Of a DNA stretch of 64,000 nucleotides, positions 31,119-46,357 are shown in pieces. The stretch lies in assembly GCF_058153355.1 (NCBI RefSeq), contig NZ_CM177019.1; one strand, given 5' to 3'. The notes under the pieces are model-generated. The model did no database searches, was not told the origin of the DNA, and saw only the letters and a program-made list of their open reading frames with translations. Position 1 is the first letter of the stretch. The number at the start of each line of letters is the position of its first letter. Position numbers and translations under genes: made by a program.

Positions 31119-31146
31119 TAGACGTCCAGATGTAAAGATGAAGGAA
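31119..31146. promoter_or_regulatory. tandem MetJ boxes in the metF promoter
   Basis: tagacgtccagatgtaaagatgaa: consecutive 8-bp repeats resembling the AGACGTCT met-box consensus, about 60-85 bp upstream of the metF start. Confidence 0.7.
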
Positions 31147-32389: not shown

Positions 32390-32440
32390 GTAAAAATTAT
32401 ATTTCAGGACAAGAAGTTATGCTCGGGTCAAGCTAATGAA

Positions 32441-33952
32441 TTGCTTAACGCAAGGAATAAAAACGTATTGATGAACACTGGGAATTTCGAGTCGATACAA
32501 ATCATGATCGACGCGCAAGAGTGGCGTAGCCTGCCGCTGCATCTGCGTCTGTATCACGCTTTTCGCCAATTGGTGATTTCCGGCGCATTGTCTGATGGCG
32601 CAAAACTGCCTTCCGCTCGCGCACTGGCCCAGCAACTTGGTCTTTCCAGAGATACCATCGAAAATGCCTATTCCCAGCTCCACCGCGACGGTTTTATGGC
32701 TCGCAGGCAGGGGGCCGGGAGTTTCGCCAGCCGCCAGGGGATACCGCATATTCAGGGCCAGCATGCGCAACCACCCTCGCCCGGACAAGTACCGGCTTTA
32801 AGCGCTCGCTGGCAGCCAATTGCCGATCGCGCAGTCTCTTTCGATGCCCGCCAGATGCAGACCTTTACGCTTGGCCTGCCGGAAACGCGAAACTTCCCGC
32901 TAAACATTTGGCAGAACTTTTCCCGCCAGATCCAACGTGAGCAGGCACATACGCTGATGTTAAATAGCGATCCGCAGGGCGAGCCACAGCTGCGCCAGCA
33001 AATTGCGCATTACCTTAATTTTGAACGCGGCGCGAAGGTAGATGCCGGGCAGATTGTGATTGTCAGCGGCGCACGGCAGGCGTTCTGGCTGTGCGGGCAA
33101 CTGCTGGCAGAGGCCGGACAGTCGGTGGCGATGGAAAATCCGGGCTATCCCGGCGCGCGTCAGGCGTTTTCTGCCGCACAGCTTAATCTTCTTCCCGTTG
33201 AAGTGGATGACGCCGGGATCCGGGTGGATAAACTGCCGCCCGCGCCGCTGGTTTACGTCACGCCCTCGCACCAGTTTCCTTCCGGTCATTTGCTCACGCT
33301 GGCGCGGCGTCATGCCCTGATTGCCTGGGCGCAGGCGCACAATGCGTGGATTATCGAAGACGACTACGACAGCGAATTTCACTACACCAGCGCGCCCGTC
33401 GCCTGTCTGCAAGGGTTAGACTGCGAGCAACGCACCCTGTATGTCGGCACTTTCAGCAAAACGCTCTATCCCGGCCTGCGCATCGGTTATCTGGTGGTGC
33501 CGACGTCGCTGGCTGCGCACTTTGCCGCCGCGCGTAATTTGCTTGATGGCGCAACGCCTGCGTTATCCCAACTAACGCTGGCGCGATTTATCGAGTCCGG
33601 TCATTTTGCCGCCCATATTCGCAACATGCGTAGTATGTATGCGGTGCGACAGGGGTGCCTGGCAGAGGCTATTCATCAGCACTTAAGTGAATGGGTCACG
33701 CCAGTGGTGACATCCGGTGGATTGCAAATGCCCTGCTGGCTGCATGGAGGTATTGATGAGCAACAGACGCTGAATGCCGCGCGCCGCGCCGGGTTAAACA
33801 TCGCCGGAATGCGCCAGTTCTGGCTGACGCACCCCGCGCACGCGGGCTGGCTGCTGGGATTCGCCGCCTTTACCCCCTACGAGATTGAACAGGGCGTCAA
33901 GCGTCTGCGGGCTGCATTATGCACTGAAAACGTGCGCCCAGCCGGGTCATAA
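32441..33952 (+). CDS. MocR/GabR-type regulator (GntR HTH fused to a PLP aminotransferase-like domain)
   Basis: 503-aa ORF; N-terminal GntR-like HTH (LPSARALAQQLGLSRDTIENAYSQLHRDGFMARRQGAGSF) followed by a roughly 350-aa aminotransferase class I/II-like region; true start may be an internal Met; GC-rich by eye. Confidence 0.8.
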   Translation: MLNARNKNVLMNTGNFESIQIMIDAQEWRSLPLHLRLYHAFRQLVISGALSDGAKLPSARALAQQLGLSRDTIENAYSQLHRDGFMARRQGAGSFASRQGIPHIQGQHAQPPSPGQVPALSARWQPIADRAVSFDARQMQTFTLGLPETRNFPLNIWQNFSRQIQREQAHTLMLNSDPQGEPQLRQQIAHYLNFERGAKVDAGQIVIVSGARQAFWLCGQLLAEAGQSVAMENPGYPGARQAFSAAQLNLLPVEVDDAGIRVDKLPPAPLVYVTPSHQFPSGHLLTLARRHALIAWAQAHNAWIIEDDYDSEFHYTSAPVACLQGLDCEQRTLYVGTFSKTLYPGLRIGYLVVPTSLAAHFAAARNLLDGATPALSQLTLARFIESGHFAAHIRNMRSMYAVRQGCLAEAIHQHLSEWVTPVVTSGGLQMPCWLHGGIDEQQTLNAARRAGLNIAGMRQFWLTHPAHAGWLLGFAAFTPYEIEQGVKRLRAALCTENVRPAGS

Positions 33953-33956
33953 TCTC

Positions 33957-35003
33957 CTACGGGATGGTGTTGCAGGCAGCGGCAACCTGTTCCAGCGTCT
34001 GGCCTGCGCCAATAAATTCCACCTTATCGCCCGCTGTCGGCGTGACGGAGCTGGCATCGACCATAAAGCTGTCCATACAAACCCGCCCCAATACCGGTAA
34101 CCGCACGCCGCGCCAGCATACGCCCGCCGGAGGACGCATATTTCGCGGAACGCCATCCGCGTAACCCGCGGATATCGTAGCGATACGCAGCGGACGCGTG
34201 GCGGTAATCGTGCTGCCGTAGCCAACTGGCGTTCCCGCCGGGACATCCTGCACGCGCAGAATAGTTAGCGTCAGCGTAAAAGCCGGTTTTAGCGGCCTGG
34301 AAAACCACGGCTGGGCGACGCCAAACAGCGCAATCCCCGGACGGCAGAGATCTTCCCGCCAACCTGGTTGCAAAAACATTCCGCAGGAGTTCGCCAGCGA
34401 AAATCGGCTGCTGGGGAAAACCGTTTTTGCCTGCTGGAATAGCGCGTGTTGCGCCATATTTAACGCATGATCCGGCCTGTCGGCGTTCGCCAGATGGCTG
34501 ATGATATAGTCCGGCGCAGGCCAGTTACGCTCACGAAAAATCGCCGCCAGACGCATCAGTTGTTGCGGCATCATGCCCAGCCGCGACATACCAGAATCGA
34601 GCTGAATCATCACCGCGCTCCGTTGCTGGCGCGTTTCCAGTAACGTAAGCCACGCCATCACCTGGTCTACGGAATTGAGCAATGGCGTGATCTGCTGCGC
34701 GTAACAATACGCCATCGCCTCCGGCATAACCCCATTAAGCACTACCACCATCGCATCAGTGGGCAGGATTTTACGCAACGCCACGCCTTCAGAAAGCTGT
34801 GCGACAAAAAAGATCCGGCAGTTCGCCGCATACAGGGCGGGCGCAATCGCCTCCGCCCCCAGACCATAGGCATTGGCTTTCAACACCGCGCCACATTGCG
34901 CAGGGGCAGCATGGCGGGCCAGCATACGATAATTGTCGACGATGGCGGCGCGATTAACGCACATAACACCGCACGCCGCCTGGATTTCAGTAGAAGTCAT
35001 CAT
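33957..35003 (-). CDS. alanine racemase-family PLP enzyme (amino-acid racemase, specificity unknown)
   Basis: 348-aa ORF; VLKANAYGLG (PLP-lysine motif, cf. VVKANAYGHG in Alr) and SAGYADGVPR (cf. MGYGDGYPR catalytic Tyr region). Confidence 0.8.
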   Translation of the reverse strand: MMTSTEIQAACGVMCVNRAAIVDNYRMLARHAAPAQCGAVLKANAYGLGAEAIAPALYAANCRIFFVAQLSEGVALRKILPTDAMVVVLNGVMPEAMAYCYAQQITPLLNSVDQVMAWLTLLETRQQRSAVMIQLDSGMSRLGMMPQQLMRLAAIFRERNWPAPDYIISHLANADRPDHALNMAQHALFQQAKTVFPSSRFSLANSCGMFLQPGWREDLCRPGIALFGVAQPWFSRPLKPAFTLTLTILRVQDVPAGTPVGYGSTITATRPLRIATISAGYADGVPRNMRPPAGVCWRGVRLPVLGRVCMDSFMVDASSVTPTAGDKVEFIGAGQTLEQVAAACNTIP

Positions 35004-36238
35004 TAATAAGGCAACGGGTAGCGGTTGGTTAGTTGTATTACTTTTTGCTCAATATCGGCGCAAATGTCTGCAATATCTGATGAATTAATGGCGAAAATAA
35101 TTTCACTTATCCAGTCGGCAATCAGCGCAAAGTCATCCGCCTTCATCCCACGCGTGGTGCAGGCCGCGCTGCCAATACGAACGCCGGAGGTAATCAACGG
35201 CGGCTGCGGATCGCCCGGCAGGGTGTTTTTATTGACCGTGATCCCCGCCAGTTCGAGAAAGTACTCCACCTGTGCGCCGGTTAACCCCTGCGGGCGCAGG
35301 TCGATAATCCCCAGATGGCAGTCGGTGCCGTCCGTTAACAGCGTCAGGCCGCGCAGCGCCAGTTGCTGGCACATCGCCTGCGCATTGTCGATAACCTGCC
35401 CGGCATAACGTTTAAATTCCGGTTGTAATGCCTCGCCAAGCGCCACCGCTTTCGCTGCGATAACGTGCATCAACGGCCCGCCCTGCAAACCGGGAAAAAT
35501 GGCACTGTCGATTTTTTTCGCAAGCCTGGCGTCGTTGGTGAGGATCATGCCGCCGCGCGGCCCGCGCAATGTTTTATGCGTGGTGGTGGTGACCACATCA
35601 GCATACGCCAGCGGCGAAGGGAAACAGCCGCCCGCCACCAGCCCGGCAAAGTGCGCCATATCCACCAGCAAAATGGCGTCAACGGCATCGGCAATGCGGC
35701 GAAAACGGGCAAAATCATAGTGACGTGGATAAGCCGATCCTCCGGCAATAATCAACCGCGGGCGCTCACGCAGCGCGATCATCTCGACCTGATCCATATC
35801 AATCAAACCACTGTGCGCATCGACGCCATAGTGAAAAGCGTTAAACCATTTGCCGGATTGATTGACCGGCGAACCGTGCGTGAGATGCCCGCCGCATTGC
35901 AGGCTCATGCCAAGAATTTTGTCGCCGGGTTTCAGCAACGCCAGATGGACCGCCTGATTCGCCTGGCTGCCGGAGTGAGGCTGCACATTGACGTAACGCG
36001 CGCCAAAGAGCTGCTGCGCGCGGGTTATCGCCAGCATCTCAACCTCATCAATAAACTTACAGCCGCCGTAATAGCGATGCTGGTAATAACCTTCGGCGTA
36101 TTTATTGGTTAACACCGACCCCTGCGCCGCGAGAACGGCGGGGCTTACGAAATTCTCCGAGGCAATCAGTTCCAGCGACTGCTGCTGGCGCTGTTGCTCC
36201 TGGTTAATCAATGCAAAAAGTGGATCGTTATTTATCAT
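35003..36238 (-). CDS. serine hydroxymethyltransferase-family PLP enzyme (GlyA paralog)
   Basis: ORF 35003..36304; from [30 protein letters not shown] collinear with E. coli GlyA including [16 protein letters not shown] (PLP lysine); start at the internal Met preceded by gggggaag is more plausible, coordinate +/- a few bases. Confidence 0.85.
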
Positions 36239-36513
36239 GCGCTTCCCCCGCAAATTCATCATGCGATGATTTTCGCAGGGAAAACCTCGTCCGCACCCTG
36301 CCACTTTTTTGGGCAGGTGCAGACCACCTGTATGTCGTATTACTTAAAAGAAGAGAACATCGCTGACAATACCGGTATTAACTCCGAAATGAAGAGGGAA
36401 GAAGGCTCCGGCCATCTCCATGTGCGATTCTGGCTAGTAAAACATCATATTCCAGCTGCTCTTATCCGCCTACGTTATTGCATATACGGATAAGGCAGCC
36501 TCAATACGTACTT

Positions 36514-38067
36514 TTACTTGATATCTTTCACGCGCATACCGTTGATCTGTTCATCCGTGATGGTGTTACCCGCTTTAAAGTAATCAACCACCGCGTGATA
36601 AACGTAATAACCGCCCGTCGTATTGCGCGCTTTACCCTCGGTAAACGCGGTAAAACCATCTCCACCATCAGCAAGGAAACTCTGAGTGGCAATGTGGTAA
36701 ACCGTCGCATCTTCAATCGGTTTGCCATTCAAAGTCAGTGAGATAACCCGCTGACCAACCGGCTTGCTGCTGTCGTACTTCATTTCCAGGCCTTTCGATA
36801 CCTGTAAAACGCCATTACTTAAACTTGCGCCGTGTTCCATCAAACTGCGTAATTGTTTACCCGTGAGTTCCATCGTCACCAGTTCGTTGGGGAACGGGAA
36901 GGTACTGATGACGCCACCCATCGTAATTGCACCCGCCGGGATCTCATTGCGGATACCGCCAGAGTTGGTTAACGCCAACTGGGTATTTTTACCCGCCGCT
37001 GCCAGTAAAGCATCTGCCGCCAGGTTCCCGAGAGAAGCCGATTCACCATAGGCACGTTTTAGTTCAACCGGCGATTGCGCCACCGTTTGCTGCACGACTT
37101 CATCCAGCTTTTTATTCCAACTATCAATCACCTGTTTTGTTTGCGGATCGGGCTTCCACTCGTCGGCGTAAAGGGTTTTAAGCTCGAAGTTTTTCACCGT
37201 AAAAGTGTGCGGCTTCTCTTTGTAGTCCAGTACCAGTTTACCCACATCAATCCCACCGCTGTCAGTGGAGAGGATGAGCGTATTGCCGACTTTAATCGGT
37301 TCCGGCGTACCCACATGTGCATGCCCGGTGATCAAAATATCCAGCCCTTTCACCTGACTTGCCGTCTGAATATCTTTATCCAGTGCGCGGCGCACATCTG
37401 TGCCCCCCATACTGGACTGGCGGGCCGGAACACCTTCGTGAATCAGCGCAACGGTCAAATCAACCTTGCCTTTGAGTTCATCGATATAACGTTGTAGCCA
37501 TTTAATTTCATCACGCGCCTCAATACCCACTCGCGTTGCCGCAGATACCGTATCATTAAAGGCAAATACACCGTGCAAACCAATCACGCCAATTTTCACG
37601 CCGTCTTTTTCAATGATGGTATAGGGCTTATCCCAGAATGATTTACTGCTGTTCTGATAAAAAACATTACCCTGCACAATCGGGAATTTTGCCTGACTCA
37701 ACTGTAATAACGTATTGTCCCAGCCGTGATCAAATTCATGATTACCTATAGTGGCCGCATCGAACGGCATGGTATTCATAATATCGATAATCGCCTTGCC
37801 TTTAGTCAGGCTGCTGATATACGGCCCGGTAAAATAGTCACCCGCATCAAAAAACCAGGTCGCTTTGTTTTTAGCTTTTTCTTGTTTAACAAGCGTAGTG
37901 ATATTTGCCCAGCCGCCAATATCTCGTTTACCGTCAGCAATCCACGGCACTTTATAAGGCTCTACATGTGCATGGAGGTCGTTGGTATAAATGATGGTGA
38001 CATCTTTGGCGCAAGCCCAAAACGGCAGTGTTAATGCGATACCCGCAGCAAGCATTTTAATTTTCAT
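36514..38067 (-). CDS. secreted 5'-nucleotidase / metallophosphoesterase-family protein (UshA-like), paralog 1
   Basis: ORF 36514..38073; signal peptide [20 protein letters not shown]; calcineurin-like motifs NDLHAH, GDYFTG, GNHEFD, ITGHAHV and a C-terminal 5'-nucleotidase-type region; start trimmed to the ATG preceded by a purine-rich SD. Confidence 0.85.
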
Positions 38068-38125
38068 AAACAATCCCTTCCAGTGAGATAAAGGATTGCT
38101 ACATTACGTTCTGAAAGGCTTTTTT

Positions 38126-38143
38126 ATGTGAGAATACTCACAT
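38126..38143. promoter_or_regulatory. 7-4-7 inverted repeat (candidate operator) in the divergent promoter region between the paralog-1 nucleotidase and the zinc-ribbon protein gene
   Basis: atgtgag-aata-ctcacat lies centrally in the 132-bp divergent intergenic region 38068..38199. Confidence 0.4.
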
Positions 38144-38199
38144 CCAGAGGCGATAACTGTAGGACAAAATCAACGACCTTATGAAATCGTTGGTGATAT

Positions 38200-39327
38200 A
38201 TGTCAAATCTGTTTGCGATTAATGTCTGTAAAACGTTCGGTTGTCGAAATTTGGGATTGGCCTCATCGGAAGATTACAGTTGGCCAGACTATAAACTGGG
38301 TTTTCCGGCACTGCACTGCCAGGCATGCGGAAGTTACCCCCCTTTGTTTGATGAACAACAATTTCGTGACTGGTTGTCAGTTCACATGACTGCGTGTGCC
38401 ATAGAAACAGGGCATTTTTGTCCATCATGCTATTGTAAAGAAAAGATTTTTTATGGCCACAACCCGCAGGGAACACAACGCGTTCAATGCCGTTCATGCA
38501 AAAAAGTCTGGACTCCGAAACAGCAGCCAGCAAGAGAAATTACGTATCCCCAGTCCATTGAAACCGTTCAACTGTTCATGCCCTTTCAAGGAGCCAGCGC
38601 AGTACAAAAGCTCTATGTTTTAGTCAGTCTTGACGCCACTCGTGGCAACATCCTTCATCTCTCCACGAATTATACGCAACATCAGACAGGAGACAGTCTG
38701 CGGTACAGTTACAGAGGCAATACAGAACCAACTGAGCACCATAGCGATATTGTGCAGAGGGTAGATATGCGTGAAGCGCAATTCTTGCGCCGGAGCCAGT
38801 TCGATGAAATTCAGTATGGCAGTGCTGTGCTCAAGCGCAACGGCAAGGGAGCCATACTACGCCCGGTTATCACGGCACACGGGCATTTCAGAATACTGAA
38901 AATCCGCTTTCCACATGTCAAAACGCATATCATTTCACACGAATGTTTTCTGAGAGGCGCAATTATTACAGCCTGGGCAGATCAGTTCCGCCAACAACAA
39001 GGCGAACTTTGGTTCGTAGAAGAAGAAATCAGCGACCGTAACGCTGATATTCCCTGGCATTTTCAGGGAACGACATACCATGGTTGGTGGCAAAATCAGT
39101 GGCAACGCTGGGGGCAGGGGAATAACAGCAAGATGGTCTGCCTGCTCACAGGAGTCTCCTTAGAAAGGGGCGCAAATGTTTCTCTGGCAACCAGTCGTTG
39201 CTTTATCACATGGCTGACAGACCAACACGACTTTACCCAAAGCGCGTTATTATCCGCAGGTCGCGTAACGAAAATGCTGACCTCACTGGCGTTAAAATAC
39301 AATGAATCGCTCAATCCATCTTGTTAG
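38200..39327 (+). CDS. hypothetical Cys-rich protein with N-terminal zinc-ribbon(s), possibly transposase-derived DNA-binding protein
   Basis: 375-aa ORF; Cys pairs CKTFGC...CQAC and CPSCYCKEK-x14-RVQCRSCKKVWT resemble the IS1 InsA / IS1595-type zinc ribbon (CPSC...QRYLCSHCRKTWQ); remainder not recognisable; no signal peptide. Confidence 0.45.
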   Translation: MSNLFAINVCKTFGCRNLGLASSEDYSWPDYKLGFPALHCQACGSYPPLFDEQQFRDWLSVHMTACAIETGHFCPSCYCKEKIFYGHNPQGTQRVQCRSCKKVWTPKQQPAREITYPQSIETVQLFMPFQGASAVQKLYVLVSLDATRGNILHLSTNYTQHQTGDSLRYSYRGNTEPTEHHSDIVQRVDMREAQFLRRSQFDEIQYGSAVLKRNGKGAILRPVITAHGHFRILKIRFPHVKTHIISHECFLRGAIITAWADQFRQQQGELWFVEEEISDRNADIPWHFQGTTYHGWWQNQWQRWGQGNNSKMVCLLTGVSLERGANVSLATSRCFITWLTDQHDFTQSALLSAGRVTKMLTSLALKYNESLNPSC

Positions 39328-39556
39328 TCAATACACTCGACAAACGACCATAAATTAATGGGATCACTATTTCTCATTTAATTAAATATATGAATGTATG
39401 ACTGAAAAATATAATCACAGTCAATGTTTAATTAATAACATTATTTGTTACTAAGATCACATAATACTTTCCTGACCTATGCTTACATAAAAATAAGACA
39501 CGGAGTTCCTTTTATTTAAATAATTCAACCAATGTAACAACCCCTATCAAGGAGGG

Positions 39557-41110
39557 ATGATGAGAACTGTATTTACGACTTTATCAGTCATATTCAGCGT
39601 GATGTTTTCTCACAGTATACTAGCTCAGGACGTTACTATTTATTATACGAATGATATTCACGCACATGTCAATCCGGCAAAAATTCCCGCTGTTGATAAG
39701 AACAGACTTGTAGGTGGTATGGCTAATATTGCAGGCATCGTTAATGAAGCGAAGAAAAAAAACAAAGATGTCTTTTTCTTTGATGCAGGCGACTATTTTA
39801 CCGGTCCGTATATCAGTACCCTGACCAAAGGTGAAGCTATTATTGATATCATGAACACCATGCCCTTTGATGCGGTATCCGTTGGTAATCACGAGTTCGA
39901 TCACGGCGTGCCCAATATGGTATCTCAGTTATCAAAAGCAAAATTCCCCATTCTGCTGGGAAATATTTACTACACCGATACAAATAAACCAGTTTGGGAT
40001 CATCCGTGGACCATTATCGAAAAAGATGGTTTAAAGATTGGTGTGATTGGATTGCATGGTGCATTCGCTTTCTATGATACAGTCGCGGCAAAAGCACGTG
40101 AAGGCGTAGAAGCCAGAGACGAAATTAAATATTTAAATAAAGCACTTGCAGAATTAAAAGGTAAAGTCGACATTACCGTTTTGCTAATTCACGAAGGTGT
40201 TCCGGCGCGTCAATCAAGCTTTGGTAGTAAAGATGTGGAGCGGCTACTACAGGCAGATATTGAGACAGCTAAAAAAGTGAATGGTGTTGATGTCTTAATT
40301 ACCGGTCACGCACATGTCGGAACACCGCAACCAATAAAAGTTAATAACACATTAATTGTATCTACCGATGCATACGGCACCGACATCGGAAAACTTGTGC
40401 TTGATTACAATCCGAAAACGAAGAAAATTGATAGTTATAATGGTGAGTTAATCACCATCTTCGCAGATCAATTTAAACCTGACACCATCGTTCAAAATAC
40501 TATCGATAAATGGAGTGCAAAGCTTAACAAAATAACACAGGAAGTTGTCGGCCATTCTCCCGTAGTTTTAACACGTGAGTATGGCAGTTCTTCTTCTACC
40601 GGTAACCTTATTCTTGATGCAATGATGGAAAAAACACCAGATGCCATTGCCGGATTTCAAAATAGCGGTGGGATGCGAGCTGATTTTCCTAAAGGTGATA
40701 TCACGCTGGGAGATGTTATTAGCACATTCCCCTTTAATAATGACCTCATCGAGATGGATTTGACGGGCCGCGATCTCAAATCGTTGATGACGCATGCAAC
40801 CAATCTAACTAACGGTGTGTTACAGGTTTCAAAAAGCGTTGCGGTTGTCTATGACAGCAAAAAACCACTGAACCAACGGTTAATCTCTTTCACCATTAAC
40901 GGCAAACCCGTGGAAGATAATCAAACATATCGTATTGTCACGCACTCCTTTTGTGCCAGTGGTGGTGACGGTTTTGAAGCATTTTTGAATGGAAAAAATG
41001 TGAAGACGATACCGGGAACAACCTCGGCGGAATCTATCATCGATTATTTCAAAAATCATAAACCTGTCACCCCAGACTTAACTAAACGAGTAATGGACGT
41101 CGCCAAATAA
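39557..41110 (+). CDS. secreted 5'-nucleotidase / metallophosphoesterase-family protein, paralog 2
   Basis: 517-aa ORF, AT-rich; signal peptide MMRTVFTTLSVIFSVMFSHSILA; same motif set (NDIHAH, GDYFTG, GNHEFD, ITGHAHV); collinear with paralogs 1 and 3. Confidence 0.85.
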   Translation: MMRTVFTTLSVIFSVMFSHSILAQDVTIYYTNDIHAHVNPAKIPAVDKNRLVGGMANIAGIVNEAKKKNKDVFFFDAGDYFTGPYISTLTKGEAIIDIMNTMPFDAVSVGNHEFDHGVPNMVSQLSKAKFPILLGNIYYTDTNKPVWDHPWTIIEKDGLKIGVIGLHGAFAFYDTVAAKAREGVEARDEIKYLNKALAELKGKVDITVLLIHEGVPARQSSFGSKDVERLLQADIETAKKVNGVDVLITGHAHVGTPQPIKVNNTLIVSTDAYGTDIGKLVLDYNPKTKKIDSYNGELITIFADQFKPDTIVQNTIDKWSAKLNKITQEVVGHSPVVLTREYGSSSSTGNLILDAMMEKTPDAIAGFQNSGGMRADFPKGDITLGDVISTFPFNNDLIEMDLTGRDLKSLMTHATNLTNGVLQVSKSVAVVYDSKKPLNQRLISFTINGKPVEDNQTYRIVTHSFCASGGDGFEAFLNGKNVKTIPGTTSAESIIDYFKNHKPVTPDLTKRVMDVAK

Positions 41111-41144
41111 AATATCATTTATCAGTCTATTTATTTAACAAGGA

Positions 41145-42770
41145 ATGCGAATGAAAACAGTGCAGCGTACTTTACTTGCCGCAACATTGCTGACTATTTT
41201 TTCGGTCTCAGCCATGGCGCAGGATGTCACGATTATTTATACCAATGATCTTCACGCTCATGTGGATTCTTATAAAGTGCCGTATATCGCAGACGGAAAA
41301 CGCGACATTGGCGGCTTTGCCAATATATCTACTTTAGTAAAACAAGAGAAAGCGAAAAATAAAGCCACCTTTTATTTTGATGCTGGAGACTATTTCACCG
41401 GCCCTTATATCAGCAGTCTGACAAAGGGCGAAGCAATAATTGACATTATGAATACCATGCCTTTTGACGCAGTATCAATCGGTAATCATGAGTTTGACCA
41501 TGGCTGGGATAATGCCCTGCGACAATTAAGCAAAGCGAATTTTCCTGTTTTATTGGGCAATGTTTATCATAAAGAGAGTGAGAAACCCTTCTGGAACAAG
41601 CCCTACACCATCCTGGAAAAAGATGGCATCAAGATTGGTATTATTGGGCTACACGGCGTATTTGCATTTAATGATACGGTCTCGGAGCTCTCTCTCCAGG
41701 GACTCGATAATGACAATAATAACCGCTTTGATAAATCTTCCGAGACCCTTAAGAATCAGGGGATTGAAGCACGTGATGAAGTGAAGTATTTGCAGCATTA
41801 TATCGACGAGTTACGTGATAAGGTTGACCTCACTGTGGCGCTGGTTCATGAAGGCGTTCCGGCGCGTCAGTCCAGCATTGGCATTACAGATGTTAGACGC
41901 GCTCTTGATAAAGATATTCAAACCGCTAGCAAGGTGAAAGGATTGGATATTCTGATTACCGGGCATGCCCACGTCGGAACGCCAGAACCAATCAAAGTCG
42001 GCAACACCTTAATCCTTTCAACTGATAGTGGCGGTATCGATATTGGTAAATTAGTCCTTGATGTCAACCCTACAGCTCGTACCCATAAAATGAAGAGCTT
42101 TGAGCTGAAAACAGTTTATGCCGATGAATGGATACCCGATCCAACGACACAAAAAGTTATCAATGGCTGGAATAAAAAACTGGCGGATATTGTACGCCAA
42201 CCAGTGGGTGAATCATCGATTGCATTAACTCGCGCCTATGGTGAGTCATCGCAACTAGGCAACCTGTTTACCGATGCAATGCTTGTCGCTGCTCCGACTG
42301 CACAGATTGCATTGATAAACTCCGGCAGCTTACGTGCGGATATAAATGCAGGCACGATTACCTTTGGCGACATTACCAGTACATTCCCCTTCAAGAATGA
42401 ACTTACTGAAATGGATCTCAGCGGTAAGGATCTGCGTAACCTACTGGAACACGGGGCATCGCTTACCAATGGCATCCTGCAAATGTCAAAAGGCGCAGAA
42501 ATGCGCTATACCCCGCAGAAACCAGTAGGTCAGCGCATAGTATCTTTTAAAATTAATGGTGAAGAGATCGTTGATACGAATATTTACCATGTTGCAACAA
42601 CGACTTTCCTTGCACTGGGGGGCGATGGTTTTCTGGCATTCAAAGAAGGGAAAAATGTTCAGGTCCGCGCCGGAAAAAACATGTCCGATGTCGTGATCGA
42701 TTATTTGAAGAAAGGCCACAAGATTACGCCTGCACAGGTAAATGAAATGCGGGTGGACGTTAGCAAATAA
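41145..42770 (+). CDS. secreted 5'-nucleotidase / metallophosphoesterase-family protein, paralog 3
   Basis: 541-aa ORF; signal peptide MRMKTVQRTLLAATLLTIFSVSAMA; highly similar to paralog 1 but with an extra Asp/Asn-rich insertion of about 25 aa (SELSLQGLDNDNNNRFDKSSETLKNQG). Confidence 0.85.
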   Translation: MRMKTVQRTLLAATLLTIFSVSAMAQDVTIIYTNDLHAHVDSYKVPYIADGKRDIGGFANISTLVKQEKAKNKATFYFDAGDYFTGPYISSLTKGEAIIDIMNTMPFDAVSIGNHEFDHGWDNALRQLSKANFPVLLGNVYHKESEKPFWNKPYTILEKDGIKIGIIGLHGVFAFNDTVSELSLQGLDNDNNNRFDKSSETLKNQGIEARDEVKYLQHYIDELRDKVDLTVALVHEGVPARQSSIGITDVRRALDKDIQTASKVKGLDILITGHAHVGTPEPIKVGNTLILSTDSGGIDIGKLVLDVNPTARTHKMKSFELKTVYADEWIPDPTTQKVINGWNKKLADIVRQPVGESSIALTRAYGESSQLGNLFTDAMLVAAPTAQIALINSGSLRADINAGTITFGDITSTFPFKNELTEMDLSGKDLRNLLEHGASLTNGILQMSKGAEMRYTPQKPVGQRIVSFKINGEEIVDTNIYHVATTTFLALGGDGFLAFKEGKNVQVRAGKNMSDVVIDYLKKGHKITPAQVNEMRVDVSK

Positions 42771-42792
42771 TAAAAAAATTATAATGCCATTC

Positions 42793-42826
42793 ATTCACTG
42801 AATGGCATTATTTTCTCTAAATCAAC
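42793..42826 (+). terminator. intrinsic terminator after nucleotidase paralog 3
   Basis: aatgccattcattcactgaatggcatt inverted repeat followed by attttctc. Confidence 0.65.
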
Positions 42827-42847
42827 AATAGATAATGAGATATATTT

Positions 42848-43708
42848 ATGTGTATAAAAAAGCACGGGATAGCTTTATCGATTCTATTAATACCTTGCAT
42901 TGGAAACGCTCAGGAAATTAAAAGTGAGGAAGGCTGGTTACATCAAAGCTTGAATGTCATTGGTCGCACAGACTCTCGCTTTGGCCCAAGGCTGACTAAC
43001 GACCTCTACCCTGAATATACTGTAGCAGGAAGAAAAGACTGGTTTGATTTTTATGGTTATGTTGATCTACCAAAATTCTTTGGCGTCGGCAGTCACTATG
43101 ATGTTGGGATCTGGGATGAGGGCTCACCACTATTTACGGAAATAGAACCTCGGTTTTCCATTGACAAATTGACCGGATTAAATCTTGCGTTCGGCCCTTT
43201 TAAAGAATGGTTCATTGCAAACAACTATGTCTATGATATGGGTGACAACCAGTCATCCCGGCAAAGTACATGGTATATGGGGCTTGGTACAGATATCGAC
43301 ACGGGTCTACCAATTAAGCTTTCTGCCAATATATACGCCAAGTATCAGTGGCAAAACTATGGTGCCGCTAATGAAAATGAATGGGACGGATATCGATTCA
43401 AAATAAAATATAGCATTCCTCTTACCCATTTATTCGGAGGGCGATTGGTATACAATAGTTTTACTAACTTTGATTTTGGATCCGATCTTGCGGACAAATC
43501 ACACAATAATAAACGAACCAGTAATGCTATTGCTTCAAGCCATATCCTTTCCCTGCTATATGAACACTGGAAATTTGCATTTACACTACGTTATTTTCAC
43601 AACGGTGGACAATGGAATGCTGGGGAGAAAGTTAACTTCGGAGATGGTCCATTTGAATTAAAAAACACAGGATGGGGAACCTATACTACTATTGGTTATC
43701 AATTTTAA
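42848..43708 (+). CDS. Tsx-family outer-membrane nucleoside-specific channel protein (paralog of tsx)
   Basis: 286-aa ORF, AT-rich; signal peptide then blocks matching E. coli Tsx from memory ([97 protein letters not shown]) and a C-terminal aromatic residue. Confidence 0.85.
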
Positions 43709-43854
43709 ATCAGGTGATGTTTTAGATATTTTTACTTAATGCCATTTTGTAATTGTCATAAATAACTTCACCATTCACACTGTGAATTCATCGCTCAACA
43801 CAAAAGCCCCCTTATTACCGGGGCACTGACCAAAGGCAAAATGACAATCAATCA

Positions 43855-43876
43855 CCACCTCCGCAGGAGGTGGTTT
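43855..43876 (+). terminator. terminator hairpin after the Tsx-like gene
   Basis: ccacctccgcaggaggtgg followed by ttt. Confidence 0.5.
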
Positions 43877-43887
43877 AGAGGTGACAA

Positions 43888-43914
43888 CAAAAGCTGGCAA
43901 CTGCCAGCTTTTGT
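43888..43914 (-). terminator. terminator hairpin immediately downstream of metL
   Basis: aaaagctggcaactgccagctttt palindrome flanked by A/T runs, directly 3' of the metL stop on the minus strand. Confidence 0.6.
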
Positions 43915-43924
43915 TCAATAATCA

Positions 43925-46357
43925 CTACAACAACTGCGCCAGACGGTTAATATCCGACTGAATCGCCCCGGCGGTGACGTCGCGCCCTGCGCCTGGCCCA
44001 CGGATCACCAGCGGGTTGTCGCGATACCAGCGGCTTTCGATGGCAAAGACGTTATCGCACGGTAGTAGTGATGCCAGCGGATGGTCTTCTCGCACCGCTT
44101 CCACGCCTACTCGCGCTTTGCCGTTAGCATCGAAACGCGCCACGTAGCGCAACACCAGCCCCATTTCACGGGCCGCTTCCAACCGTTGTACCATCTGCTC
44201 ATTAAGTTCATCGCCATTTTCAAAGAAATGGTCGATGCTGCCACCTTCGCAATGGGTTGGCACCAGTGATTCAACACGCACCTGGTCCGGTTCAATGTTG
44301 TAACCCGCTTCACGCGCCAGAATCACCAGCTTGCGCATCACATCTTTGCCGGAGAGGTCATCACGCGGGTCAGGTTCAGTTAAGCCCTGCTGCCACGCCT
44401 GATCCACCAGCTCAGTAAACGGCACGCTACCGTCGAATTGCAGGAACAGCCAGGAGAGCGTGCCGGAGAAGATCCCGCTGATCGACAAAATAGTGTCGCC
44501 GCTGTCGATCAGATCGCGCACGGTATGGTTGATCGGCAAACCTGCGCCGACGGTGGCGTTGTATAGCCAGTGACGCCCGGTTTTTTCGAACGCGTCGTGG
44601 ATCTGTCGATATTTATTGCTGTCGCTGGCTCCCGCCAGTTTGTTGGCACTGATGACGTGGAAACCGTGGCTGGCGAAATCGAGATACTGATCAGCAAGCT
44701 GCTGGCTGGCAGTAACGTCCAGCACCACTAAATCATCATACGGATGGGCACGCATCCACAGGAACAGCGACTCTTCATCCTGTTCGACGGCTTCATCATT
44801 AAAGAAGGCTAGCGCACGGCTGGCGTCCAGCCCGTCATAGCTCAACAGGCTGCGACGGCTGTCCACCACGCCTGCCAGCACAAATTCAAAGCCGGTGCGC
44901 GCCGAGAGCGTGCTCTGCTCACGGGCGAACAGTTCCAGCCAGCGGGAACCGATATTGCCCTTACCGAACAATACCAGGCCGATGCGTTTTTCTGCGCGGA
45001 AGACGGACTGATGCAGCCCCTGAATCAGGCTTTCGGTCGGCCCGGTGCGCAGTACTGCCACCAGGCTGATGCCGTCATCGGACTGCCAGGTAAACTCGAC
45101 CGGCTGGCCTTTCAGTTGCTGCCAGAAGCGGTGGCAATGCAGCGGGTTACGGGTGACGCCCGCCCCAACCATCGCCACCAGCGCCAGCCCCTGACGCAGG
45201 CGCAGTTCGCCGGGTAATCCTGCTTCGTCGAGGATTTTCAGCGCACTGTCGGCCACTTCCGAGGTGTAGCAAAATTGCAGCAACTGGCGATCGTTATGCA
45301 CGCCAACTGCCAGTGGGCGCACCTGAGCACGTTTCAGGATTTGGTCGATCTCTTTATGCGCCAGTTTAAAATCCTGACTGGCGGGCACCTGAAACTCAAT
45401 CAAACAGACATCATCGTGGCTGGTGACAATACGCGCGCCAGTACCTGAGGCCAGCACGCGTTCAATACGCGTAGATCCTTGATCCGGTGTATAGCTACAG
45501 CGCAGCTGCAGGTCGATTTCGCTGCCAGAAACTGGCTGTAAAGTACGCGCGTGCAACACTGGCGCGGCAAGACGCGCCAGTTCACTGGCTTCATCAAGAC
45601 GCAGCAATGGCAGCAGACAGGCATCTTTCACTTTACGCGGGTCGGCACTATATACCCCGGCGACATCGCTCCAGATGGTTACGCGGGAAACCCCCGCCAG
45701 CGCACCGATTTGTGTCGCGGAATAGTCGGAACCGTTACGCCCCAGCAGCACCGTTTCACCGGCGTTGTTACGGCTGATAAACCCGGTCACCACCAGACGT
45801 TTGCCCGGATGTTGTACCAGTAGCTGTTGCAGCAACGGGTAAGAAAGCCCTTCATCAACCTGCGGCTGCGCGGCGCGTTCAGCGCGTAAAAACTCGCGGG
45901 CATCAAGCCAGGCCGCTGGCAGCCCTTGTTGATTAAGTACCGCAGACATCAGGCGCGCCGACCACACTTCACCGTGGCCCACCACTTCCGCATACACCGC
46001 ATCGTTAATACCGCTGTCGAGCAGCGCCGCCAGGCGTTCCAGATCGCTGACAAAAGCGCTAATGAGGCTATCGGCTTCTTCAGCGGGTAGCAGGCCGCTA
46101 ATCAGATCGCACTGATAGCGACGCAGCGTTTGTTGAACCTGATGCGCAGAGAGACGATCGGTCTGGCTTAGTTTCAACCAGTTAATCAACTGGTTAGTGG
46201 TGCTACCGGCGGCGGAAACCACCATCATATCGTCAGGCTGAGAGTACTCCGCCATAATGCCCGCGACACGCAAATAACACTTCACATCAGCCAGACTACT
46301 GCCACCAAATTTATGCAGTTGACGACCTTTCGCCCCTGCCTGCGCAATCACACTCAT
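43925..46357 (-). CDS. metL: bifunctional aspartokinase II / homoserine dehydrogenase II
   Basis: 810-aa ORF MSVIAQAGAKGRQLHKFGGSSLADVKCYLRVAGIMAEYSQPDDMMVVSAAG. Confidence 0.96.
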   Translation of the reverse strand: MSVIAQAGAKGRQLHKFGGSSLADVKCYLRVAGIMAEYSQPDDMMVVSAAGSTTNQLINWLKLSQTDRLSAHQVQQTLRRYQCDLISGLLPAEEADSLISAFVSDLERLAALLDSGINDAVYAEVVGHGEVWSARLMSAVLNQQGLPAAWLDAREFLRAERAAQPQVDEGLSYPLLQQLLVQHPGKRLVVTGFISRNNAGETVLLGRNGSDYSATQIGALAGVSRVTIWSDVAGVYSADPRKVKDACLLPLLRLDEASELARLAAPVLHARTLQPVSGSEIDLQLRCSYTPDQGSTRIERVLASGTGARIVTSHDDVCLIEFQVPASQDFKLAHKEIDQILKRAQVRPLAVGVHNDRQLLQFCYTSEVADSALKILDEAGLPGELRLRQGLALVAMVGAGVTRNPLHCHRFWQQLKGQPVEFTWQSDDGISLVAVLRTGPTESLIQGLHQSVFRAEKRIGLVLFGKGNIGSRWLELFAREQSTLSARTGFEFVLAGVVDSRRSLLSYDGLDASRALAFFNDEAVEQDEESLFLWMRAHPYDDLVVLDVTASQQLADQYLDFASHGFHVISANKLAGASDSNKYRQIHDAFEKTGRHWLYNATVGAGLPINHTVRDLIDSGDTILSISGIFSGTLSWLFLQFDGSVPFTELVDQAWQQGLTEPDPRDDLSGKDVMRKLVILAREAGYNIEPDQVRVESLVPTHCEGGSIDHFFENGDELNEQMVQRLEAAREMGLVLRYVARFDANGKARVGVEAVREDHPLASLLPCDNVFAIESRWYRDNPLVIRGPGAGRDVTAGAIQSDINRLAQLL

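What the first reader, a model, noticed from the sequence alone, without database searches (positions are those of the whole stretch)
36514..42770. Nucleotidase paralogs 1 and 3 form a diverged inverted repeat flanking the zinc-ribbon gene and paralog 2
Paralog 1 (minus strand, 36514-38067) and paralog 3 (plus strand, 41145-42770) are the most similar pair: by eye, high identity over the first roughly 120 mature residues, with visibly related nucleotide sequence (for example gatgtcaccatcatttataccaacgacctccatgcacatgt versus gatgtcacgattatttataccaatgatcttcacgctcatgt). They are in inverted orientation and bracket about 3.1 kb containing the Cys-rich gene and paralog 2. Paralog 3 carries an Asp/Asn-rich insertion that could be a calcium-binding or surface loop. 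The arrangement suggests duplication and inversion, and could permit recombinational inversion or gene conversion between copies.
Basis: seen in the sequence. Interest (0 to 1): 0.5.

Follow-up and report, generated by a model that had tools for sequence, protein, structure and literature searches.

The report
Ancient inverted nucleotidase paralogs, rarely recombining
Two of the three periplasmic nucleotidase genes in a known E. coli accessory island do face each other as a roughly 67%-identical inverted repeat, but they are ancient paralogs that do not flip the DNA between them; the only hint of exchange is a patch of one gene copied into the other in two draft genomes.

Summary
Observation confirmed. 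P1 (36514-38067, -) and P3 (41145-42770, +) are the closest pair among three periplasmic 5'-nucleotidase paralogs: 68.6% aa and 66.7% nt, against about 56% and 58.5% with P2. They form a 75-76%-complementary inverted repeat around the Cys-rich gene and P2. P3 carries a 20-aa Asp/Asn-rich insertion.

- The locus is the known E. coli metL-metF accessory island (GR31), and P1 is PDB 3IVD.
- The paralogs are ancient. Synonymous sites are saturated, and each paralog has its own orthologue clade in several genera. P1-P3 identity is the same (about 67%) in clusters where the two genes are co-oriented.
- The longest identical run is 17 nt, and the window shows no conversion tract (p=0.16).
- All 658 complete E. 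coli genomes that carry P3 are colinear, so no inversion isoform is seen.
- The layout reflects a conserved divergent pair (P1 and the Cys-rich gene, with a perfect CRP core between them) next to a P2-P3-Tsx block.

One qualification: two draft assemblies carry P1 alleles with clean, independent 394-452-nt P3-derived tracts that include the insertion. One metagenome contig carries a P2::P3 fusion. These are either rare homeologous exchange or assembly artefacts, and only the reads can decide. The finding is mostly ordinary and of modest interest.

The parts
36500..43925 (.). Five-gene accessory island in the metF-metL gap (GR31 of the literature)
   Evidence: Alignments with E. coli loci that lack the extra left module begin at window 36500/36501. 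Alignments with the 2-gene-variant loci resume at 43926, next to metL. The island is present and colinear in 658 of 5426 complete E. coli genomes. It is named GR31 metL..metF in PMC12928451. GC is 0.40-0.50 against 0.57-0.60 in the flanks.
36514..38067 (-). P1, periplasmic-type 5'-nucleotidase paralog 1 (517 aa)
   Evidence: Pfam Metallophos plus 5_nucleotid_C. About 98% identical to PDB 3IVD/3IVE 'Nucleotidase'. GC 0.479, GC3 0.513.
37226..38004 (-). P1 arm of the diverged inverted repeat (N-terminal catalytic domain coding region)
   Evidence: the repeat finder I1 37544-38004 and I3 37226-37528, 75-76% complementary to the P3 arms.
37325..37782 (-). P1 stretch that is replaced by P3 sequence in the two mosaic alleles found elsewhere (ch7 equivalent 37424-37782; ch8 equivalent 37325-37716)
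   Evidence: Informative-site analysis of L007 and L008, with coordinates mapped. In the window itself this stretch is ordinary P1.
38068..38199 (.). Divergent P1 / Cys-rich intergenic region
   Evidence: 132 bp, alignable across the E. coli haplotypes and the E. albertii-type cluster.
38127..38142 (.). Perfect CRP-type core TGTGA-N6-TCACA
   Evidence: It is the only zero-mismatch match in the 64-kb window. The core is conserved in L003, L006 and L009, and with one mismatch in the distant locus L012.
38171..38192 (.). Conserved hairpin CAACGA..TCGTTG just upstream of the Cys-rich start codon
   Evidence: Flagged. The stems are unchanged in four loci. Function unknown.
38200..39327 (+). Cys-rich 'cytoplasmic protein' (375 aa): two Cys4 zinc-ribbon motifs plus a DDE-transposase/integrase-like RNase H fold
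39446..39461 (.). CRP-like site (one mismatch) about 100 nt upstream of P2
   Evidence: Position only; not tested.
39557..41110 (+). P2, nucleotidase paralog 2 (517 aa)
   Evidence: Pfam Metallophos plus 5_nucleotid_C. GC 0.407. Forms its own clade together with the two P2-type genes of the E. albertii-type cluster.
41145..42770 (+). P3, nucleotidase paralog 3 (541 aa by first ATG; RefSeq start 41151)
   Evidence: Pfam. Present once in each of 658 complete genomes. Orthologues of 536-539 aa occur in Citrobacter, Enterobacter and E. albertii.
41223..42061 (+). P3 arm of the diverged inverted repeat (interrupted by the insertion)
   Evidence: the repeat finder I1 41223-41683 and I3 41759-42061.
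41694..41753 (+). P3-specific 20-aa Asp/Asn-rich insertion (LQGLDNDNNNRFDKSSETLK)
   Evidence: Alignment gap in P1 and P2. Conserved in all 12 other P3 orthologue clusters aligned, and absent from the sister Cronobacter/Atlantibacter group.
41445..41962 (+). P3 stretch that acted as donor in the two mosaic P1 alleles (ch7 41445-41863; ch8 41511-41962)
   Evidence: The left junction of ch7 lies in the 17-nt identical run ATTATGAATACCATGCC (41445-41461).
42781..42811 (.). 13-bp-stem hairpin between P3 and the Tsx-like gene
   Evidence: Terminator-like on both strands.
42848..43708 (+). Tsx-family nucleoside channel (286 aa)
   Evidence: Pfam Channel_Tsx E 4.9e-70. NCBIfam NF011686 scores 491.8 against a cut-off of 311.
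43854..43915 (.). Hairpins between the Tsx-like gene and the 3' end of metL
   Evidence: (43854-43874) and perfect inverted repeat I9 at 43886-43915.

Best explanation
The 'inverted repeat' is two old paralogous genes, not a recombination device. The segment is the known E. coli accessory island in the metF-metL gap (GR31). It encodes three secreted two-domain 5'-nucleotidases (P1, P2, P3), a Tsx-type outer-membrane nucleoside channel, and a Cys-rich protein with a transposase-like fold. P1 and P3 share nucleotide similarity only because their catalytic N-terminal domains are conserved at the protein level (81-82% aa). Their C-terminal substrate-binding domains are 56% identical, and synonymous sites are saturated. 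The P1/P3 split predates the spread of these clusters among Enterobacteriaceae. The inverted orientation arises because P1 always sits head-to-head with the Cys-rich gene, while in this island type the P2-P3-Tsx block lies downstream of the Cys-rich gene. In the other cluster type the same paralogs all point the same way. With 75-76% arm identity and at most 17 identical bases in a row, the pair does not support inversion in practice (0 of 658 genomes). Inferred, not shown: the island is a cAMP-CRP-controlled system that dephosphorylates external nucleotides in the periplasm and admits nucleosides. The three enzymes would differ in substrate range, and the Cys-rich protein would act as the local regulator. 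Exchange between the paralogs, if it occurs at all, is very rare.
For: - Identity, saturation and run lengths.
- No conversion signal in the window. Identical-codon fraction is 0.445 against 0.389 expected from codon usage. The permutation test gives p=0.155 for P1-P3.
- Each paralog forms a clade with bootstrap 100 and has orthologues in other genera. P3 is sister to a Cronobacter/Atlantibacter group (bootstrap 99).
- P1-P3 nucleotide identity is 0.664-0.676 in four clusters, inverted or direct.
- Two architectures exist. Type A, at metF-metL in E. coli and Citrobacter enshiensis, runs P1<- Cys-> P2-> P3-> Tsx->. Type B, in the E. albertii-type and Enterobacter chuandaensis clusters, runs <-Cys P1-> P2-> Tsx-> P3->.
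- About 1180 further E. coli genomes carry only P1 plus the Cys-rich gene, so that pair is a unit.
- P3 is in 658 genomes, once each. The same number have the whole segment colinear.
- Domains and motifs. P1 matches PDB 3IVD.
- A perfect CRP core at 38127-38142 is conserved across loci.
- Literature: PMC12928451 describes GR31 with three UshA-like ORFs plus a Tsx homologue.
Against: - Two draft assemblies carry P1 alleles with P3-derived tracts, and a metagenome contig carries a P2::P3 fusion. Exchange is therefore not excluded.
- Function, localisation, CRP dependence and the regulator role are inferred from sequence and context only.
- Complete genomes are consensus assemblies and would miss a minority inversion isoform within a culture.
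Confidence: 0.85

Rival explanations
1. The paralogs do exchange sequence at a low rate. Homeologous gene conversion from P3 into P1 across the inverted repeat, and microhomology-mediated deletion between the tandem P2 and P3, create mosaic enzymes in natural E. coli. This complements rather than replaces the best explanation.
For: - P0015 (WP_059327147, GCA_001520995.1, L007) is P1 with 165 of 165 consecutive informative sites in the P3 state. The tract is 394-419 nt, 99.7% identical to the P3 allele of the same island haplotype, and includes the 60-nt insertion in frame.
- P0121 (WP_059334829, GCA_001520215.1, L008) is a second mosaic on the B2-type haplotype. It has different junctions, a 445-452-nt tract, 177 of 179 sites in the P3 state, and 99.6% identity to the B2 P3 allele.
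- Gene order in L007 is unchanged, so this is conversion and not inversion.
- The L007 contig ends inside P3 exactly 20 nt into the region shared with the mosaic. That is what a k=21 de Bruijn assembler does at a genuine repeat, and such assemblers cannot invent junction k-mers when only 17 nt are shared.
- No Ns occur in the contigs.
- L011 shows a clean single P2-to-P3 switch inside CCGGCGCGTCA, with 1657 bp lost.
Against: - None of 5426 complete genomes has a chimeric P1 or a second copy of any P3 segment.
- No further mosaic cluster appeared in a search of 5.8 billion protein clusters.
- The two mosaics come from draft assemblies with neighbouring accession numbers, probably one project and one pipeline. 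That is what an artefact would look like.
- The ch8 left junction falls in a 2-nt interval.
- Recombination at 58-60% tract identity is expected to be extremely rare (established knowledge of mismatch-repair barriers).
- The end of the L008 contig is not explained by any repeat.
Confidence: 0.55
2. The mosaic P1 alleles and the P2::P3 fusion are assembly or gap-filling artefacts, and the paralogs never exchange sequence.
For: - All three are short-read assemblies.
- Both P1 mosaics come from the same accession block.
- There are zero cases in complete genomes.
- Contigs break at or near paralogous regions.
Against: - Junctions share only 2-17 identical bases, too few for k-mer graph mis-joins.
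- The two mosaics sit on different haplotypes, and each uses its own haplotype's P3 allele.
- The reading frames stay intact at 537 aa.
- Tract and recipient are only 58-60% identical with a 60-nt indel, beyond bubble-merging tolerances (inference from how assemblers work).
Confidence: 0.4
3. This is an invertible segment: recombination between P1 and P3 flips 38068-41144 and swaps the 5' parts of the two genes as a switch.
For: The geometry is right: inverted homologous arms of about 780 nt lie 3.2 kb apart. A protein with a DDE-type recombinase fold is encoded between them.
Against: - 658 of 658 genomes are colinear.
- The arms are 75-76% identical and the longest exact run is 17 nt.
- No serine or tyrosine invertase domain is present in the island.
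- The same paralogs are co-oriented in type B clusters.
- The Cys-rich gene also occurs with P1 alone in about 1180 genomes.
Confidence: 0.02
4. P3 arose from P1 by a recent duplication and inversion inside E. coli.
For: P1 and P3 are each other's closest paralogs within the island.
Against: - pS is 0.79, which is saturated.
- P3 is closer to the single-type genes of Cronobacter and Atlantibacter than to P1 (bootstrap 99).
- Orthologues of both paralogs coexist in Citrobacter, Enterobacter and E. albertii-type clusters.
- GC3 differs between the two genes (0.51 vs 0.44).
Confidence: 0.02

Closest known systems
E. coli 'Nucleotidase' PDB 3IVD / 3IVE (from memory: structural-genomics entry for CFT073 c4898 with bound uridine/cytidine)
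   Same: P1 aligns over residues 19-517 with about 98% identity, so P1 is this protein. P3 aligns to it end to end except for the 20-aa insertion.
   Different: No paper on the entry was found in the searched library. P2 and P3 have no solved structure, and the substrate range of all three is untested.
Genomic region GR31 (metL..metF) of ExPEC/APEC strain BEN2908 and B2 strains (PMC12928451)
   Same: Same locus and same genes: three UshA-like ORFs of 1554, 1551 and 1620 bp plus a Tsx homologue. The authors propose a nucleoside-processing system.
   Different: In the passages retrieved, the paper does not analyse several things reported here. These are paralog relationships, orientation, the Cys-rich gene, the 2-gene variant, the type B architecture and mosaic alleles.
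UshA, the chromosomal periplasmic 5'-nucleotidase / UDP-sugar hydrolase of E. coli
   Same: Two-domain architecture (Metallophos plus 5_nucleotid_C), the metal-site motifs and an N-terminal signal sequence.
   Different: Scores of 153-165 bits against the UshA equivalog cut-off of 600. The best PDB match to UshA covers only the N-terminal ~145 residues, at E about 1e-23. These genes are not UshA orthologues.
tufA/tufB of Salmonella and E. coli: inverted duplicate genes that co-evolve by gene conversion and can invert the chromosome (established knowledge, recalled, not tested here)
   Same: Paralogous genes in inverted orientation on one chromosome, where conversion without inversion is the expected outcome of exchange.
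   Different: The tuf genes are about 99% identical and show concerted evolution. P1 and P3 are 67% identical and show none. At most two isolated events are seen.
IS1 InsA / IS1595-type and other DDE transposases (for the Cys-rich gene between the arms)
   Different: - It is single-copy at fixed chromosomal sites, and no terminal inverted repeats were found.
- Candidate acidic residues D145, D202 and E248 are acidic in 41, 47 and 55 of 55 members respectively, so they are not all invariant.
- It is paired with nucleotide-scavenging operons in 4 of 5 further loci examined, 3 of them with distant homologues.

Membership tests
Two-domain 5'-nucleotidase family (Pfam Metallophos PF00149 + 5_nucleotid_C PF02872) | Both domains score above the Pfam gathering thresholds | tested here: met
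   P1 scores 47.7 and 137.9 bits, P2 50.3 and 125.6, P3 42.0 and 127.6, against cut-offs of 21.5 and 23.6.
Two-domain 5'-nucleotidase family (Pfam Metallophos PF00149 + 5_nucleotid_C PF02872) | Dimetal-site motifs (D-x-H, G-D, G-N-H-E, H, G-H-x-H) retained | tested here: met
   [25 protein letters not shown] and ITGHAHVG are present in all three paralogs in the alignment.
Two-domain 5'-nucleotidase family (Pfam Metallophos PF00149 + 5_nucleotid_C PF02872) | Export signal (periplasmic location) | tested here: inconclusive
   By inspection only. Each has a basic N-terminus, a hydrophobic core and an A-x-A type site before (K/Q)DVT. The Cys in P1's WACA is replaced in orthologues (WAGA, WASA), which argues against a lipobox. 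The PDB chain aligns from P1 residue 19 onward. No signal-peptide predictor was available.
Two-domain 5'-nucleotidase family (Pfam Metallophos PF00149 + 5_nucleotid_C PF02872) | Nucleotide phosphohydrolase activity | not testable with these tools
   Needs enzyme assays.
UshA equivalog (NCBIfam NF007109) | Whole-protein score at or above the curated cut-off (600 bits) | tested here: not met
   152.9, 165.0 and 155.6 bits. All other equivalogs (NadN, CpdB, SoxB, YfkN-type) are also far below their cut-offs.
Invertible DNA segment / recombinational switch | Both orientations found among genomes | tested here: not met
   658 genomes carry P3. The same 658 have a single colinear place covering at least 80% of 36514-42770.
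Invertible DNA segment / recombinational switch | Near-identical inverted repeats at the boundaries | tested here: not met
   The arms are 75-76% complementary. The longest identical run is 17 nt.
Invertible DNA segment / recombinational switch | Adjacent serine or tyrosine invertase | tested here: not met
   No such Pfam domain occurs in any island protein. The Cys-rich protein has a DDE-like fold instead.
Paralogs under concerted evolution by gene conversion | Paralogs within a genome more alike than orthologues between genomes | tested here: not met
   Sequences group by paralog type with bootstrap 100. P1-P3 identity is constant at 0.664-0.676 across four clusters.
Paralogs under concerted evolution by gene conversion | Conversion tract detectable in the copies at hand | tested here: not met
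   Permutation test on 810 polymorphic sites gives P1-P3 p=0.155, P1-P2 p=0.046 (uncorrected) and P2-P3 p=0.26.
Paralogs under concerted evolution by gene conversion | Mosaic alleles with a donor-identical tract somewhere in the population | tested here: inconclusive
   Two draft-assembly alleles carry tracts of 394-452 nt that are 99.6-99.7% identical to P3. None occurs in complete genomes. No reads were available.
Tsx nucleoside channel (NCBIfam NF011686, Pfam PF03502) | Score above the curated cut-off | tested here: met
   491.8 bits against 311. Pfam gives 236.5 bits against 27.2.
DDE transposase (IS1/IS1595-like) for the Cys-rich protein | RNase H-like catalytic core fold | tested here: met
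   [not shown]
DDE transposase (IS1/IS1595-like) for the Cys-rich protein | Invariant D-D-E triad | tested here: inconclusive
   Acidic residues occur at D145 in 41 of 55 members, at D202 in 47 of 55 and at E248 in 55 of 55. Their placement in the active-site geometry was not checked.
DDE transposase (IS1/IS1595-like) for the Cys-rich protein | Mobile element hallmarks (multiple copies, terminal inverted repeats) | tested here: not met
   There is one copy per genome at a fixed locus, and no inverted repeats flank the gene.

The most novel reading that the evidence does not exclude
Natural homeologous exchange really happens among these diverged paralogs. Two independent P3-to-P1 conversion events, with tracts of 394-452 nt between sequences only about 58-60% identical over the tract, moved the conserved P3-specific Asp/Asn loop into P1. 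These occurred on two different island haplotypes. A P2::P3 fusion arose at an 11-nt microhomology. That would make the cluster a natural case of loop and domain shuffling among periplasmic nucleotidases, across an inverted repeat far below the usual identity limit for RecA-dependent recombination. A still more speculative extension is that the DDE-fold protein encoded between the arms contributes to the process.
Probability: 0.5. Interest if true: 0.5.

Novelty: new member of a known kind. Interest (0 to 1): 0.35.

Why it matters
For the finding as stated, it matters little. The finding describes an ordinary cluster of old paralogs in an accessory island that is already catalogued (GR31), and one of its proteins is already in the PDB. 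The inverted layout has no detectable consequence in 658 genomes.

Two by-products could matter.
1. If the two mosaic P1 alleles are real, they document gene conversion between paralogs far more diverged than those normally seen to exchange. That gives a concrete pair of isolates in which to test it.
2. The gene between the arms belongs to a small family of zinc-ribbon, transposase-fold proteins. They sit head-to-head with nucleotide or nucleoside scavenging operons in 4 of the 5 further loci examined, 3 of them around distant homologues. Those operons encode 5'-nucleotidases, a porin with acid phosphatase and cyclic-nucleotide phosphodiesterase, and NupC with a nucleoside phosphorylase. This makes the family a testable candidate for a domesticated-transposase regulator.

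The island's enrichment in B2/ExPEC strains also makes its untested biochemistry relevant to growth on host-derived nucleotides.

Tried and rejected
- **'Two places' in B2 genomes.** These looked like a possible second copy or an inversion. They turned out to be the weak cross-hit of window P1 on the B2 allele of P2 (75% over 326 nt, opposite strand).
- **Chimeric P1 in complete genomes.** The search for a chimeric P1 found none.
- **Further mosaics by protein search.** A search with the mosaic as query found only its own two-member cluster.
- **Literature.** Searches for the two WGS accessions and for 3IVD/3IVE/c4898 gave nothing relevant. A search on nucleotidase/tsx/uropathogenic/metF returned only the BEN2908 paper.
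- **Other contigs of the two draft assemblies.** I could not retrieve them to check for an orphan P1 middle fragment or for the state of P3. The look-up tools work by exact protein only.
- **Contig-end logic.** The k=21 argument that fits L007 does not explain the end of L008. I therefore treat that argument as suggestive only.
- **Structure of the Cys-rich protein.** The first AF2 run used 22 close homologues and failed (pLDDT 40). A 55-sequence alignment from the representative search fixed it. Foldseek against PDB gave only weak hits, the afdb50 library was unavailable, and a profile search of PDB sequences found nothing.
- **Bootstrap tree.** The first Biopython bootstrap run timed out and was redone with a numpy distance matrix.
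- **P1-like signal peptide in type B P3.** I considered that it might mark a recent 5' conversion. I rejected this because identity there (75-78% nt) is no higher than in the rest of the N-terminal domain.
- **P1 'WAC' as a lipobox.** I considered it and rejected it on orthologue variation.

Full report
**1. What is at the coordinates.**
The ORF list places three long genes of one family at these positions:
- P1 at 36514-38067 (-)
- P2 at 39557-41110 (+)
- P3 at 41145-42770 (+)

A 375-aa Cys-rich gene lies at 38200-39327 (+), and a 286-aa gene lies at 42848-43708 (+). All three long proteins carry Metallophos plus 5_nucleotid_C domains, and the last gene is a Tsx-family channel.

| Pair | aa identity | nt identity |
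|---|---|---|
| P1-P3 | 68.6% | 66.7% |
| P1-P2 | 56.3% | 58.5% |
| P2-P3 | 56.3% | 58.8% |

The repeat finder recovers the inverted arms independently: 37544-38004 vs 41223-41683 (461 nt, 76%) and 37226-37528 vs 41759-42061 (303 nt, 75%). It also finds a weaker P1/P2 inverted match (410 nt, 70%). Both quoted 41-mers are present, and 34 of 41 bases match. The insertion is 20 residues (nt 41694-41753).

**2. Where the window comes from, and whether the thing is known.**
The segment is E. coli chromosome between metF and metL. The five-gene island (36500-43925) is present and colinear in 658 of 5426 complete E. coli genomes. These include the type strain ATCC 11775, E2348/69, LF82 and ATCC 25922.

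A 2026 paper lists the region as GR31 (metL..metF) in BEN2908 and other B2/ExPEC strains. It notes three UshA-like ORFs and a Tsx homologue and proposes nucleoside processing. The passages I retrieved show sequence comparisons only (PMC12928451).

P1 is about 98% identical to PDB 3IVD/3IVE 'Nucleotidase'. The three proteins fall far below every NCBIfam equivalog cut-off (UshA 153-165 bits against 600). They are family members but not UshA orthologues.

**3. Age of the paralogs.**
The proportion of synonymous differences is 0.79-0.81 for all three pairs, beyond Jukes-Cantor saturation. Third-position identity is 35-41%.

At conserved degenerate residues the same codon is used in 44.5% of cases for P1-P3, against 38.9% expected from codon usage alone.

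That conservation is domain-specific. P1-P3 identity is 81-82% in the catalytic N-terminal part and 56% in the C-terminal substrate-binding part. GC3 also differs: 0.51, 0.38 and 0.44 for P1, P2 and P3.

A database search with P3 and sorting of the hits by identity gave these results:
- P3 orthologues of 536-539 aa, 81-88% identical, occur in Citrobacter, Enterobacter and E. albertii.
- P1 orthologues (86-98%) occur in Kluyvera and Enterobacter.
- P2-type genes (71-76%) occur in Kluyvera and others.

In a neighbour-joining tree with 100 bootstraps, each paralog is a clade with support 100. P3 is sister to a Cronobacter/Atlantibacter group with support 99. P1 joins that pair with support 100. 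The P1/P3 split is therefore older than the P3/Cronobacter-group split, and there is no concerted evolution.

**4. Why the two genes are inverted.**
Two further facts explain the layout.

First, about 1180 additional E. coli genomes carry only P1 and the Cys-rich gene at the same locus. They are 87-89% identical in nucleotides to the window, and the 3' end of the Cys-rich gene overlaps metL. The head-to-head pair P1/Cys-rich is thus a unit of its own.

Second, clusters elsewhere show two architectures:
- **Type A**, at metF-metL in E. coli and Citrobacter enshiensis: P1<- | Cys-> P2-> P3-> Tsx->.
- **Type B**, at other loci, in a cluster whose P3 orthologue NCBI names E. albertii and in Enterobacter chuandaensis: <-Cys | P1-> P2(-> P2')-> Tsx-> P3->. 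All the nucleotidases are co-oriented.

P1-P3 nucleotide identity is 0.664-0.676 in all four clusters, whatever the orientation.

In type B, P3 keeps a P1-like signal peptide (75-78% nt, no higher than the neighbouring region). In type A, the first ~66 nt of P3 are unrelated to P1 (~40%). The type A arrangement therefore involved a rearrangement with a breakpoint at the junction between signal peptide and mature protein (the direction of change is inferred).

The inverted orientation is thus a by-product of module order. It is not a local duplication-inversion.

**5. Can the repeat recombine?**
*In the window.* The longest identical runs are 17 nt (P1-P3), 20 nt (P1-P2) and 14 nt (P2-P3). A GENECONV-like permutation test on 810 polymorphic sites gives p=0.155, 0.046 (uncorrected for three tests) and 0.26.

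*In the population.* P3 occurs in 658 complete genomes, once each and full length. Exactly 658 genomes have one same-strand place covering at least 80% of 36514-42770. An inversion of the 3.1-kb middle would cap coverage near 50%. No inversion isoform exists among these assemblies, and no genome has a second copy of any P3 segment.

The 'second place' reported in B2 genomes is only the P1 x P2 cross-hit.

**6. The exceptions.**
Sorting the protein hits exposed P0015, a 537-aa 'P1' that is 90% identical to P1 and 76% to P3.

*First mosaic (ch7).* At the DNA level (L007, GCA_001520995.1) the gene is P1 except for a block of 165 consecutive informative sites, all in the P3 state. The block is 394-419 nt and includes the 60-nt insertion. 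It is 99.7% identical to the P3 allele of the same island haplotype but only 58% identical to P1. Its left junction lies inside the 17-nt identical run ATTATGAATACCATGCC, and its right junction lies in GTTCCGGC.

*Second mosaic (ch8).* A second cluster member (P0121, L008, GCA_001520215.1) sits on the B2-type haplotype. It has different junctions, a 445-452-nt tract, and 177 of 179 sites matching the B2 P3 allele.

Gene order in L007 is unchanged, so these would be conversions and not inversions.

*P2::P3 fusion.* A metagenome contig (L011) carries a P2::P3 fusion with a single switch inside CCGGCGCGTCA. It has lost 1657 bp and sits next to Tsx and metL.

*For authenticity.*
- The junctions share too few bases (2-17) for k-mer graph mis-joins.
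- Each mosaic uses its own haplotype's donor.
- The reading frames are intact.
- The L007 contig stops in P3 exactly 20 nt into the sequence shared with the mosaic. This is the signature of a true repeat in a k=21 graph.

*Against authenticity.*
- None of 5426 complete genomes has such an allele.
- No other mosaic cluster turned up in a search of 5.8 billion protein clusters.
- The two assemblies have neighbouring accession numbers and so probably share a pipeline.
- The end of L008 is unexplained.

I put authenticity at about 0.5-0.6. Only reads or PCR can decide.

**7. What the island most likely does (inferred).**
All three nucleotidases keep the dimetal-site motifs. Their N-termini look like signal peptides with A-x-A sites. 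P2, P3 and the Tsx-like gene are separated by 34 and 77 nt, with hairpins after P3 and after Tsx.

The P1/Cys-rich intergenic region holds the only perfect TGTGA-N6-TCACA core in the 64-kb window (38127-38142). That core is conserved in the other E. coli haplotypes, in the type B cluster and, with one mismatch, in a distant locus. A one-mismatch site lies about 100 nt upstream of P2.

CRP-dependent control is the rule for nucleoside-scavenging genes such as tsx, deo, cdd, udp and nupG (established knowledge). The most economical model is a cAMP-CRP-activated periplasmic nucleotide-to-nucleoside system. Its three enzymes would share a catalytic core and differ in the substrate-binding domain. 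None of this was tested.

**8. The insertion.**
The sequence ELS[LI]QGLDNDNNNRFDKS..LKNQ is conserved in every P3 orthologue examined. It is absent from P1, P2 and the sister group. It interrupts the alignment to 3IVD between FAFNDTVS and GIEARDE.

A conserved clade-specific loop is shown. A role in calcium binding is a guess: the D-x-D-x-N spacing resembles an EF-hand loop, but the Gly at position 6 and the acidic residue at position 12 do not fit (my reading of the sequence).

**9. The gene between the arms.**
The Cys-rich protein has two Cys4 motifs. The second resembles the InsA zinc ribbon of IS1.

The family is small, with 141 representative clusters. The gene is single-copy at fixed loci and lacks flanking inverted repeats.

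Besides the window, the family member sits head-to-head with a nucleotide or nucleoside scavenging operon in four of five further loci examined. One of these is a close homologue and three are distant homologues:
- 5'-nucleotidases (L009, L018)
- a NupC-family transporter plus a nucleoside phosphorylase (L013/L014)
- a porin plus class B acid phosphatase plus class II cyclic-nucleotide phosphodiesterase (L015/L016)

One context (L017) shows no such link.

A domesticated transposase acting as the local regulator is the best guess. The partly conserved acidic residues D145, D202 and E248 leave catalytic activity open.

**10. Verdict.**
The 'duplication and inversion, recombination-prone repeat' reading is mostly wrong. 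The island and one of its proteins are already known. What is new is descriptive:
- the age and orthology of the paralogs
- the two cluster architectures
- the 2-gene variant
- two candidate conversion alleles and one fusion, all of which need read-level confirmation
- the nature of the Cys-rich partner gene

Noticed in passing
[not shown]
   Followed up: partly
window 38127-38142 and 39446-39461: A perfect CRP-type core TGTGA-N6-TCACA lies in the P1/Cys-rich divergent promoter region. It is the only zero-mismatch site in the 64 kb and is conserved in other haplotypes and genera. A one-mismatch site lies upstream of P2.
   Followed up: partly
window 38171-38192: A conserved hairpin, CAACGA-N10-TCGTTG, ends 7 nt before the start codon of the Cys-rich gene. 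Its stems are unchanged in four loci, including the E. albertii-type cluster. Whether it is an operator or a 5'-UTR structure is unknown.
   Followed up: no
window 31218-36499: An extra four-gene module lies between metF and P1: a hypothetical gene, a MocR/GntR-aminotransferase regulator at 32441-33952, an alanine racemase at 33957-35003 and a serine hydroxymethyltransferase at 35003-36304. It occurs in only 3 of 5426 complete E. coli genomes. The SHMT gene is annotated as a pseudogene (internal stop) in strain 2013C-4282 but is an open 433-aa ORF here.
   Followed up: partly
loci L003, L004 (E. coli), equivalent to window 36500-39119: About 1180 complete genomes have a 2-gene variant, with P1 plus a 376-aa Cys-rich allele that is only 73% identical in protein. 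The 3' end of that allele overlaps the 3' end of metL by 37 nt. One genome (L005) has remnants of both genes next to a PTS/MalI insert.
   Followed up: partly
locus L011 (metagenome scaffold, ENA ERZ28638772): A P2::P3 hybrid gene (492 aa called) has a single switch inside the 11-nt run CCGGCGCGTCA and has lost 1657 bp, directly upstream of Tsx and metL. It is either a deletion between the tandem paralogs or an assembly chimera.
   Followed up: partly
plasmid records H151-H156: P1-type nucleotidase genes, some with part of the Cys-rich gene, occur at 76-82% nt identity on plasmids. The plasmids belong to Salmonella enterica (80-194 kb), Citrobacter freundii (425 kb) and a Pseudomonas sp. (51 kb). 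Two 4.9-Mb 'plasmid' records are evidently chromosomes.
   Followed up: no
window 41145-41215 vs L009 9001-9070, L020 9001-9070: P3 of the metF-metL island type (E. coli, Citrobacter) has a signal-peptide coding region unrelated to that of P1. P3 of the co-oriented cluster type keeps a P1-like one. The 5' end was therefore replaced during cluster rearrangement.
   Followed up: partly
locus L008 position 1 (equivalent to window 39816): The draft contig that carries the second mosaic allele ends inside P2 at a stretch similar to P1. No exact repeat of 20 nt or more among the known paralog alleles explains the break. This ch8 allele also has GAA, as in P2 and P3, where the P1 reference allele has AAG.
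   Followed up: partly
window 31001-32000: This is the lowest-GC kilobase of the window (0.363). It coincides with the 975-nt hypothetical gene at the left end of the extra module (WP_000281214.1 in strain 2013C-4282).
   Followed up: no
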